From Eledone cirrhosa (lineage: Eukaryota), in the NCBI GenBank assembly GCA_964016885.1, contig CAXHJY010000706.1, positions 1 through 64,000 of the forward strand: 64,000 nt of DNA. The letters are read 5' to 3'. Positions within the stretch are counted from its first letter, which is position 1; each line of letters starts with the position of its first letter. The translations under genes were made by a program, and so were the position numbers. Of the stretch, positions 3,611 through 25,410 are shown piece by piece. Below the pieces are notes generated by a model. It had not been told where the DNA came from, did not search any database, and saw only the letters and a list, made by a program, of their open reading frames with translations.

Positions 3611-3840
3611 TAGGAAAAAGTATGACCCCGACGGCAGAGTTCAAGCCGTTTCGACATAGTAGAGCACTTTCCGACTCTACCACTCCATATCCCAACTTTT
3701 CCACCCAGCTCAAGTTTCTTTTAGTCCAGAAATAGCCGTCGAAACGGCTTGAGCTCTGTAATGCAATGGGTCATACTTTTTCCTATTACCCACCTAAGTA
3801 TTGAGTATTTTGGTGCGTTATGGTCCATCTGGTTCCTTAC

Positions 3841-16163: not shown

Positions 16164-16259
16164 TGTAAGAGAGATGAGGAGTTACCAGTTGAACGTATAA
16201 GAACATATTCAGCTAAGTACTCGATACTTGGGGAAGTAGAGTCGGACACTCACTTTTAA

Positions 16260-16334
<75 letters not shown>

Positions 16335-16385
16335 AGAGTCGAGATCTGACGGTTGAGCTCTTGCCGTTTCAACAACTAGCTCCAT

Positions 16386-16435
<50 letters not shown>

Positions 16436-16439
<4 letters not shown>

Positions 16440-16632
16440 TATAGAAGGAGCTTCTACAGGACTAGTACTGTTTCATTCAGATGAAATCTTCAGGGCTTCC
16501 TGAAGATTTCATCTGAATGAAACAGTACTAGTCCTGTAGAAGGCTCCTTCTATAAAATAAAAAAAATGTTACTCTGCCATGTATTGAGTACCTTACTTAC
16601 TGTGGTTATCTCCCACTCAACCCGGGACCTAC
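16436..16632. mobile_element. Palindromic mini-element with back-to-back hammerhead-like cores (family 2)
   Basis: About 58-bp near-perfect arms around loop GCTT; each arm reads CTGAAGA-TTTCATCTGAAT-GAAA-CAGTAC-TA; tail GTATTGAGTACCTTACTTACTGTGG on the right. Confidence 0.75.
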
Positions 16633-16639
16633 GTATATA

Positions 16640-24045: not shown

Positions 24046-24839
24046 TAAGAAATTATAGTTGTAATTATTATCATCACCCCCGTCACCCTCCTCCTTTCCA
24101 CCATCTTCATCGTCATCATCTACTTGTTATTATTACTATTATTATCAGCCTCACCTGAACCTATTCGTCTGCGTTTGTATCACCTTGTCCGGTGAAGCTA
24201 CTTAGCTTCGATTATTAGGGCATATTTCTATAATTGTTCAGTCATGCATAATACATCAGGACACAGACTCTTTTCATGTAGAAAATGTTTAATTGTTAAT
24301 CAAACAACCCACCTATTTGTCAAACACATAATATGCCTCACTTTACTTCCTGTTTTGTTTTACATTCTTTTTTTCTTTCAGTTATTCTATCTTTCCTTCA
24401 TGCTTTTTATTGATCCCACCTCGGGCTCTTTCAAGCAATATATAATCGATCTGAAACTCAGATTTTTTTTTTTTTTTTTTCTTTATCACTGATGTCTAAT
24501 ACCAACTCTTTCGAAAGTAGATAAACACTGGTTGTGTGACCAATCACAGCACTTGTTGGAATTTACTGCAATATTTTCAATGAAATGAAAATGATAAATC
24601 TAAACCGGAGATTGGGGTTGAAGGCGAAAAGAGTTTTATGTATTTATATATATATTTTTTTTTATCTATTATTGCTTTTATCTGTCTTCCACCAACATAC
24701 ATACATACGTACATATACACACGCCAATATATATATATATATATATACACACGCACATATATATATATATGTGTGTGTATATATATACATGTGTATATAT
24801 ATATATATAAATGTGTGTATATATATATATATATAAGTT

Positions 24840-25023
24840 TATCCCAGGTTCAATCGGGGGGAGGGGACCATAGTCAGTAAGTTACTCAATACATAGCAGA
24901 GTATAAATATTTAATATAGAAATGGCTTCTACAGGACTAGAACTGTTTCATTCGGGAGAAATTATCAGGGCTTCCTGATGATTTCTCCCGAATGAAACAG
25001 TTCTAGTCCTGTAGAAGCCATTT

Positions 25024-25028
<5 letters not shown>
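24840..25028. mobile_element. Palindromic mini-element family 2, second copy
   Basis: About 55-bp arms around loop GCTT; CTGATGA-TTTCTCCCGAAT-GAAA-CAGTTC-TA; tail (reverse) on the left. Confidence 0.75.
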
Positions 25029-25102
<74 letters not shown>

Positions 25103-25261: not shown

Positions 25262-25410
25262 GAGTCCCGGGTTCAATCGGAGGTAATCACAGTAAGTAAG
25301 GTACTCAATACATTAGTAGAGTATACACAAAATTTAATAGAAATGATTTCTACAGGAATAGAACTGTTTCATTCGAAGAAAATCATCAGGCTTGTGATAG
25401 ACAGATCGAA
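25262..25410 (-). mobile_element. Non-palindromic copy of family 2
   Basis: Minus strand: TCACAAGC-CTGATGA-TTTTCTTCGAAT-GAAA-CAGTTC-TA... plus the same tail. Confidence 0.7.

What the first reader, a model, noticed from the sequence alone, without database searches (positions are those of the whole stretch)
16436..16632. Palindromic mini-elements with mirrored substitutions and a flip-flop loop (16436 versus 24915)
Seen: both copies are palindromes with arms of about 55 bp that turn at the same point (CAGG-GCTT-CCTG), right beside the CUGANGA core. The copies differ at about 8 positions, and these differences are mirrored in both arms, while the arms within a copy differ by only one. The tail lies right of the loop in one copy and left in the other, yet the loop reads GCTT on the plus strand in both, so the loop is inverted relative to the tail. 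A linear form exists at 25262-25410. Inference: one arm is templated from the other by fold-back or hairpin-primed synthesis (or arm conversion), and flip/flop loops recall hairpin-transfer replication. Stem I is poorly formed, so catalytic activity is doubtful.
Basis: partly seen in the sequence, partly recalled or inferred. Interest (0 to 1): 0.72.

Follow-up and report, generated by a model that had tools for sequence, protein, structure and literature searches.

The report
Penelope stubs joined at RNA start
These 200-base mirror-image inserts are two of thousands of short stubs of a Penelope-like jumping gene. Each was likely built at its landing site from two DNA copies of the first 60–130 bases of one capped RNA, joined head to head, so the 'flip-flop loop' is a variable joint and not a sign of hairpin replication.

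Summary
The palindromes are real, but they are not a separate mini-element. They are the shortest insertions of an abundant Penelope-like retrotransposon with mostly Hydra-clade motifs: an intact 758-codon RT + GIY-YIG frame, a hammerhead, and (TA)n targets. A head-to-head inverted arm plus a one-sided tail is published. The 'loop' is a joint: 30 different centres occur in 100 copies of copy 1's subfamily, in both orientations. The mirrored differences between the two window copies are subfamily differences; within a subfamily, 3 changes are mirrored and 17 are in one arm only. Arms stop at a fixed point 29–30 bases below a conserved TATA box: 43 of 92 ends fall within 13 bases. An extra G absent from the parent often precedes that point (714 against 255), as expected from copying an mRNA cap. 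Best reading (about 0.65): both cut target strands prime cDNA on the same RNA, run to its cap and are end-joined. No RNA data were found. This scan has reported the same reading on other DNA.

The parts
16436..16494 (-). Copy 1, tail-less inverted arm: hammerhead core, stems II and III, cleavage triplet and the A-rich linker that joins (TA)n
   Evidence: the outer end varies and has A/T-tract expansions across 57 subfamily-1 copies
16495..16498 (.). Copy 1 centre GCTT: the joint of the two arms, at +2 to +5 of the inferred transcript (parent reads CC|AGCTT)
   Evidence: GCTT is 7 of 100 centres in this subfamily
16499..16556 (+). Copy 1 tail arm: type I hammerhead (CUGAAGA at 16500-16506, GAAAC at 16519-16523, GUA cut site after 16538). 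A one-base insertion in the 3' strand shortens stem I
16557..16635 (+). Copy 1 tail of about 75 bases, with a short TACTC...GAGTA inverted repeat. In full elements this stretch is the start of the open frame. Its end is sharp
   Evidence: 55 of 57 copies end in the same 9 bases
24834..24912 (-). Copy 2 tail (older subfamily)
   Evidence: L061
24913..24969 (-). Copy 2 tail arm: hammerhead core changed to CUGAUAA, stem I 5' strand cut short by the joint
24970..24973 (.). Copy 2 centre (AAGC relative to the tail)
24974..25029 (+). Copy 2 tail-less arm. From 24969 it holds a hammerhead with intact core and a 6-pair stem I; this is its minimum-energy fold, but not beyond shuffles (z = -1.4)
25262..25394 (-). 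Copy 3: single-arm stub (hammerhead plus tail) that ends near the same start point, with no promoter upstream

Best explanation
These palindromes are the shortest insertions of a Penelope-like retrotransposon, and each was likely made at its (TA)n landing site from two DNA copies of the 5' end of the element's RNA, joined head to head. Shown: full elements in the same genome carry this hammerhead and tail at the start of an intact RT + GIY-YIG frame, with a TATA box 29-30 bases upstream of the turn point. Shown: almost every mini has a tail on exactly one arm, both arms stop near the same base, and the centres are heterogeneous joints. Inferred: the turn point is the capped transcription start. 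The endonuclease would cut both target strands. One strand would prime at the tail end (about +130) and the other at the A-rich site (about +60), probably on the same RNA. Both cDNAs would run to the cap, often copying it as an extra base, and would then be joined through 1-4-base microhomology, blunt ends or short templated inserts. Priming at the downstream copy of the same sites in a read-through RNA would give the long and full-length insertions. The minis lack promoter and frame, so they would be dead ends.
For: Link to the autonomous element: a 6.9-kb palindrome starts at the same tail-less site, runs through UTR and endonuclease frame, and ends in hammerhead plus tail. Thirteen fetched full-frame loci show promoter-hammerhead-tail overlapping the frame start. 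Start point: TATA-to-start spacing is 21-22 bases in 48 of 52 promoter-bearing copies across three subfamilies whose spacers differ. Of 92 copies picked on the tail alone, 43 end within a 13-base window and 1 ends in the next ~80 bases upstream (counted from the printed rows). Cap-like base: in the subfamily with parent CC|AGATT, G precedes AGATT in 714 arm ends and A, C or T in 255; only 10 of the first 100 non-G rows are A or T. In a subfamily where stem-I snap-back would add a different base, 11 of 15 unambiguous non-parental additions are cap-type (by eye). Untemplated G marks cap copying in L1 and SVA (PMC4859970, passages). Two primings: the tail is on the shorter arm in 5 of 10 long insertions. 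Both arms are complete around a 1-base centre at 11 of 84 places. Mirror centres are common. The Anolis enzyme cuts and extends both strands from two start sites that bound the tail (PMC11167929, main text). One RNA source: loop II is identical in both arms in 18 of 20 and 15 of 18 copies, against 0.35 and 0.22 expected. Two-tailed minis number 27 against about 2,090 one-tailed. Tail-less pairs are few: 371 centres against 346 with a tail (the patterns differ slightly).
Against: No RNA run was available, so start site, cap and cleavage are inferred from DNA only. In copy 1's subfamily the tail arm is the more complete one in 26 of 37 asymmetric centres (p = 0.02), the direction that fold-back predicts. 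The strict one-tail rule also follows naturally from fold-back, and in vitro the Anolis start sites did not differ between strands (PMC11167929). In the large count the extra G is also what stem-I snap-back or slippage would give, and some centres do show snap-back. The discriminating subfamily gives only 15 ends. Two or three minis carry different known variants in their two arms (L050, L224, L267), which could mean two RNAs. The intact frame was shown for a sister subfamily, not for the subfamilies of the two window copies. One RNA cannot be told from two RNAs of one source locus.
Confidence: 0.65

Rival explanations
1. Fold-back (self-priming): one cDNA primed at the tail reaches the RNA 5' end, folds on itself and copies itself to the A-rich site. 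Mirror centres arise later by inversion between the arms.
For: It explains identical arms and a single tail directly. The tail arm is more complete in 26 of 37 centres in the youngest subfamily. Some centres show short stem-I snap-back. Self-priming is proposed in PMC3846280 (passages).
Against: It needs about half of the long young insertions to have inverted kilobase spacers, since the tail is on the shorter arm in 5 of 10. Centres with both arms complete and 0-2 bases between them are common. In another young subfamily the two orientations are about equal (13 against 10 by eye), with no trend with age.
Confidence: 0.17
2. Two cDNAs are joined as in the best reading, but the shared end point is a reverse-transcriptase stall or a processing site at the edge of hammerhead stem I, not the transcription start.
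For: Stem I begins exactly at the turn point. An extra C on the cDNA can come from snap-back onto the mirror of stem I in two of three subfamilies.
Against: A TATA box is conserved at -29/-30 while the spacer diverges. Cap-type bases dominate where snap-back predicts another base. A second family in this genome, with no canonical core in my scan, also often turns near a point about 21 bases below a TATA-like box, though less sharply (by eye).
Confidence: 0.12
3. The palindrome is a fixed non-autonomous unit that moves whole (MITE-, retrozyme- or hairpin-replicon-like), with arms kept alike by conversion and centres eroded after insertion.
For: Hundreds of near-identical copies exist. The perfect palindrome is the commonest centre, 30 of 100.
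Against: Many centres are longer than the perfect palindrome and hold extra bases. Turn points and arm lengths run from about 45 bases to kilobases with the same two outer ends. One-arm changes outnumber mirrored ones 17 to 3. The minis have no promoter.
Confidence: 0.05
4. The palindromes are assembly fold-back artefacts.
For: No read or contig was found that spans the whole of copy 1.
Against: The outer ends are fixed and biologically defined, arms have diverged, centres differ per locus with unique flanks, and centre variants appear in short-read contigs.
Confidence: 0.01

Closest known systems
Insertion architecture of endonuclease-bearing Penelope-like elements: inverted 5'-truncated pLTR plus a one-sided tail (Craig et al. 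2021, PMC8557442, passages; Arkhipova et al. 2013, PMC3846280, passages; Schostak et al. 2008, PMC2377424, passages)
   Same: Head-to-head inverted copy, tail at one end, hammerhead in the pLTR, pLTR and tail overlapping the frame start, TATA and initiator-like motifs in the pLTR, microhomology at junctions.
   Different: Here it is shrunk to about 200 bases with both arms ending at one fixed point. The tail is about 70-75 bases, not 30-40. PMC3846280 reads the junction palindromes as self-priming on an antisense template, which these data disfavour.
Hydra clade of C-terminal GIY-YIG Penelope-like elements (PMC8557442, passages of the Hydra section; supplement searched for two terms only)
   Same: DKT, CxCx5C linker, CxxC and CxH near the C-terminus, canonical hammerhead, (TA)n targets.
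   Different: RWR in place of RWK. The unit is 4.7-5.7 kb because of a long TG-rich 3' UTR, against 'generally under 3 kb'. Two cysteines lie inside the GIY-YIG core. No tree was built.
PAc (Anolis Poseidon) in vitro reaction (Frangieh et al. 2024, PMC11167929, main text and start of methods read)
   Same: Both strands cut and extended, two internal start sites bounding the tail, AT-rich targets, uncut RNA as template.
   Different: In vitro the start sites did not differ by strand; here nearly every insertion pairs one tailed with one tail-less end. In the parts read, that paper does not treat the inverted junction or the RNA 5' end.
L1 twin priming and cap-derived untemplated G (PMC4859970, passages)
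   Same: Both target strands prime on the RNA, the junction has small indels, and an extra G marks a full run to the cap.
   Different: In L1 the two cDNAs copy mostly different parts of the RNA (recalled). Here both copy the same 5' segment, which gives a palindrome.
Parvovirus flip/flop hairpin ends (recalled)
   Same: Superficially, a palindrome whose centre occurs in two complementary forms.
   Different: There are about 30 centre forms, not two. The palindromes are internal genomic insertions, and the partner protein is RT + GIY-YIG, not a rolling-hairpin nickase.

Membership tests
EN+ Penelope-like element | Single frame with RT and GIY-YIG endonuclease | tested here: met
   758-codon frame with YRDD and VYKC..YIG. 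The Pfam GIY-YIG match is weak and below cut-off (E 0.005 and 0.096); no Pfam RT hit and no informative PDB hit. Shown for a sister subfamily of the window copies.
EN+ Penelope-like element | Partial tandem pLTRs and inverted 5'-truncated copy | tested here: met
EN+ Penelope-like element | Tail at one end only | tested here: met
   27 two-tailed against about 2,090 one-tailed minis; the tail is longer than the published 30-40 bases
EN+ Penelope-like element | Hammerhead in the pLTR | tested here: met
   Rfam at gathering score found nothing in the window
EN+ Penelope-like element | Target-site duplication | not testable with these tools
   The flanks are (TA)n, so a duplication cannot be read
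Hydra clade | DKT in place of DKG; CxCx5C linker; CxxC and CxH near the conserved E and N | tested here: met
   read from the translation against PMC8557442
Hydra clade | RWK motif | tested here: inconclusive
   RWR at the matching place
Hydra clade | No CCHH motif in the endonuclease | tested here: inconclusive
   No CxxC in the GIY-YIG core, but two cysteines 9 residues apart lie there; no alignment to reference elements was made
Hydra clade | Insertion into (TA)n | tested here: met
Hydra clade | Generally under 3 kb | tested here: not met
   Hammerhead-to-hammerhead unit of 4.7-5.7 kb in six loci; the paper gives this as a tendency, not a diagnostic
Hydra clade | Placement in the RT phylogeny | not tested
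   no reference proteins were fetched
Type I hammerhead ribozyme | CUGANGA / GAAA / NUH core with stems I and III | tested here: met
   94.9% of cells paired in 12 sequences, and two stem-I pairs change on both sides between subfamilies (related sequences, so few independent events)
Type I hammerhead ribozyme | Stem II closed by a pair next to the core | tested here: inconclusive
   three pairs plus a U-U next to the core; the single-sequence fold is not beyond shuffles
Type I hammerhead ribozyme | Self-cleavage | not testable with these tools
   no RNA data; in the palindromes the long hairpin would out-compete the fold
Rolling-hairpin (flip/flop) replicon | Exactly two inverse-complement loop forms | tested here: not met
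   30 centres in 100 copies
Non-LTR retrozyme | Tandem hammerhead-bearing monomers | tested here: not met
   minis are head-to-head pairs continuous with an autonomous element; definition from the abstract of 10.64898/2026.07.22.740005

The most novel reading that the evidence does not exclude
Penelope-like elements insert by a coordinated double priming on one capped mRNA. Two reverse transcriptases, one on each cut target strand, start on either side of the tail, and both can run to the cap. The thousands of minis are 'strong-stop' by-products that record the transcription start, the cap and the joining chemistry. This would explain the inverted pLTR, the one-sided tail and the pLTR-first hammerhead with one mechanism, and would replace the published antisense self-priming idea.
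Probability: 0.5. Interest if true: 0.62.

Novelty: new member of a known kind. Interest (0 to 1): 0.4.

Why it matters
How Penelope-like elements make their inverted repeats and one-sided tails is stated as open in PMC8557442 and PMC11167929. This family supplies thousands of young junctions at one fixed point. That allows counts which separate fold-back from double priming and which point to a capped start directly before the hammerhead. The element and its architecture are ordinary. The value lies in the junction statistics, above all the cap-like base and the near-strict one-tail rule, which give sharp predictions for an existing in vitro system. I did not find the start-site or cap reading in four full-text searches, which miss most subscription papers. 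This scan has noted the start-site and double-priming readings on other DNA.

Tried and rejected
Rfam at gathering score: no match in the window. The whole-window inverted-repeat listing was swamped by TA tracts. Pfam and PDB sequence searches of the full frame gave no RT hit and nothing useful. Sequencing-run search: no RNA holder listed; the four runs were contigs of unknown kind and cannot show RNA ends. A generic hammerhead scan of the loci found one unrelated hammerhead (L224) and no canonical core in the second family. A decayed inverted arm in copy 3 is not significant. My first guess of the Neptune clade was dropped after reading the clade motifs. Rejected: a flip/flop replicon, a whole-unit MITE or retrozyme, strong ongoing arm conversion, and an assembly artefact. 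The tail-to-tail pair L179 is no closer than unrelated copies (1.76%) and was treated as two insertions. The first loci were biased toward GCTT centres and were not used for orientation counts, but they are in the pooled sets. Rows dropped before counts: 4 of 59, 3 of 22 and 0 of 20 for poor left-arm alignment, plus 1 more gapped copy. One search skipped tail hits with under 420 bases upstream, and its printed positions are one base low. In one search, two ambiguous centres and nine parental continuations were set aside.

Full report
OBSERVATION. The window lies in a 3.0-Gb animal assembly; nearby short repeats look like octopus SINEs (recalled, not tested). Copy 1 (16436-16635) and copy 2 (about 24834-25029) are palindromes that turn at GCTT (16495-16498 and 24970-24973), with the tail on opposite sides. 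The arms differ by 1 of 58 and 2 of 56 positions, and the copies by 9-11 of 57. Copy 3 (25262-25394) has one arm and the tail. All sit in or beside (TA)n. The family is large: the tail 21-mer occurs 17,710 times and its control 0 times.

WHAT IT BELONGS TO. Copies picked on the tail alone include longer ones that share upstream sequence. Locus L092 holds a 6.9-kb palindrome. One end starts at the same tail-less site as the minis, runs through a TG-rich UTR into an endonuclease frame, turns, and ends in hammerhead plus tail. That frame finds 150 scored matches at 97-100% identity in the genome, many in open frames of 758 codons. Among 20 fetched stretches, 13 carry the 758-codon frame (one locus twice), with promoter, hammerhead and tail overlapping its start; the units are 4.7-5.7 kb. 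The protein has YRDD, a C-terminal GIY-YIG, DKT, CxCx5C, CxxC and CxH, which PMC8557442 lists for the Hydra clade (passages). Pfam support is weak and no tree was built. The frame belongs to a sister subfamily (S3). For the subfamilies of copy 1 (S1) and copy 2 (S2) I saw promoter-bearing longer copies but did not trace a frame. The inverted 5'-truncated copy with a one-sided tail is the published architecture of these elements.

THE 'LOOP'. A pattern that fixes tail orientation but leaves the centre free found 346 S1 copies. Counted by eye, the 100 listed centres are AAGCTT 30, AGCTT 19, AAGCT 8, GCTT 7, AAGCGCTT 5, AAGC 3, and 28 copies with 24 further forms, many of them with inserted bases. 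The window's two forms are therefore two of about 30 joints. The tail arm is the more complete one in 26 of 37 asymmetric cases (p = 0.02). In S3 the split is 13 to 10 (by eye).

MIRRORED CHANGES. Within S1, arms differ by 0.31 per 45 bases and copies by 0.36-0.42, with 3 mirrored and 17 one-arm changes in 55 copies. The mirrored differences between the window copies are thus subfamily differences. The arms do share a source: loop II is identical in 18 of 20 S3 and 15 of 18 S2 copies, against 0.35 and 0.22 expected. Among 105 minis, the 7 discordant calls are single changes or small deletions, not subfamily hybrids, although 2-3 copies carry different known variants in their arms. In six long head-to-head insertions the arms differ by 0.06-1.04% against medians of 1.6-2.1%, and the partner arm is the nearest relative in 5 of 6. 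Arms start alike and then drift apart.

THE TURN POINT. Parents read TATAAATA, then 21-22 bases, then AGATT, AGCTT or GGCTT, in 48 of 52 promoter-bearing copies across three subfamilies with divergent spacers. Of 92 copies chosen on the tail only, 43 end in a 13-base window around that first base, 1 ends in the next ~80 bases upstream, 17 reach further upstream and 31 end further downstream. Hammerhead stem I starts at the same base and shows changes on both sides at two pairs. In S3 the parent has C before AGATT, yet at joints G precedes it in 714 arm ends and A, C or T in 255. Sixteen of the first 84 places have the G on both arms, 11 of them with one base between the arms. Untemplated G is the accepted mark of cap copying in L1 and SVA. 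Caution: in S3 and S1, snap-back onto the mirror of stem I or slippage would add the same base, and some centres show it. In the S2 variant where snap-back predicts another base, 11 of 15 non-parental additions are cap-type, 3 are snap-back-type or plain A, and 1 is other (by eye). No RNA was available to check this.

ONE PRIMING OR TWO. Fold-back of a tail-primed cDNA always leaves the tail on the longer arm. In 10 long insertions with both ends readable, the tail is on the longer arm in 5 (L031, L046, L092, L170, L177) and on the shorter in 5 (L166, L168, L172, L176, L180). A hairpin with a 1-base loop cannot self-prime (established: at least 3 bases are needed). The tail end is sharp (55 of 57 identical), while the tail-less end varies with A-tract expansions, as slippage at a priming site would give. 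The two ends are coordinated: 27 two-tailed minis against 346 + 1,740 one-tailed, and 371 S1 centres against 346 with a tail. The Anolis enzyme extends both strands from two start sites that bound the tail.

MECHANISM. Shown: membership of the element, fixed inner and outer ends, variable joints, one source for both arms, the one-tail rule. Inferred: a capped start at the turn point; both target strands priming, at about +130 and +60, probably on one RNA; run-off to the cap; end joining. Confidence is 0.65 for the whole mechanism and above 0.95 for the element class. Fold-back with later inversion keeps 0.17, because of the one-tail rule and the 26:11 bias. A stall at stem I in place of a start site keeps 0.12. 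The minis lack promoter and frame, and a transcript would fold as one long hairpin, so they are probably inert.

WHAT WAS READ. PMC11167929: main text and start of methods. PMC8557442, PMC3846280, PMC2377424 and PMC4859970: passages; one supplement of PMC8557442 was searched for two terms. Preprint 10.64898/2026.07.22.740005: abstract and outline only; its supplements were not seen. Searches showed no paper on start-site-anchored or cap-marked inverted Penelope junctions in their listings. My reading was formed before the look-ups of earlier scan notes. Those notes report the same architecture, start-site clustering and double priming on other DNA; they are not independent evidence.

VERDICT. 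A real but ordinary new family member with a known architecture. The junction counts make an open mechanistic question testable. Interest 0.4.

Noticed in passing
window 41573/41600, 49446/49510, 53124/53137 (paired cores); single cores at 3652, 4122, 9387, 12937, 16370: A second, very common family with the same layout: head-to-head arms, one tail with a similar TACTC...GAGTA motif, (TA)n flanks. Its centre is less sharply fixed, often near TTT|AGTCC about 21 bases below a TATA-like box, and my scan found no canonical CUGANGA core in it.
   Followed up: partly
window 16180-16265 and 16336-16390: Two more Penelope-like end fragments (a tail piece and a ribozyme-like arm) lie in the same TA tract as copy 1, so the tracts collect nested insertions.
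   Followed up: no
L041, L044, L008 (second copy), L182:459-564: The tail arm begins at about the hammerhead cut site and is joined to a full inverted arm through the stem I repeat. This may record a cleaved RNA, or a deletion between the repeats.
   Followed up: partly
L163-L182: Among full-frame copies with a readable 3' end, the long arm lacks the tail in 10 and has it in 2. The tail-less priming site may give the longer cDNA.
   Followed up: partly
L092:5900-8200: The element's 3' UTR holds 2-3 kb of TG/TA simple sequence of variable length and a second copy of the tail-like motif just after the stop codon.
   Followed up: no
L170:4542-6818: The first in-frame ATG is codon 47 of the 758-codon open frame, and several very short ATG frames lie in the hammerhead before it, so the true translation start is unclear.
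   Followed up: no
L224:1234-1280: An unrelated well-formed type I hammerhead, present as an inverted pair.
   Followed up: no
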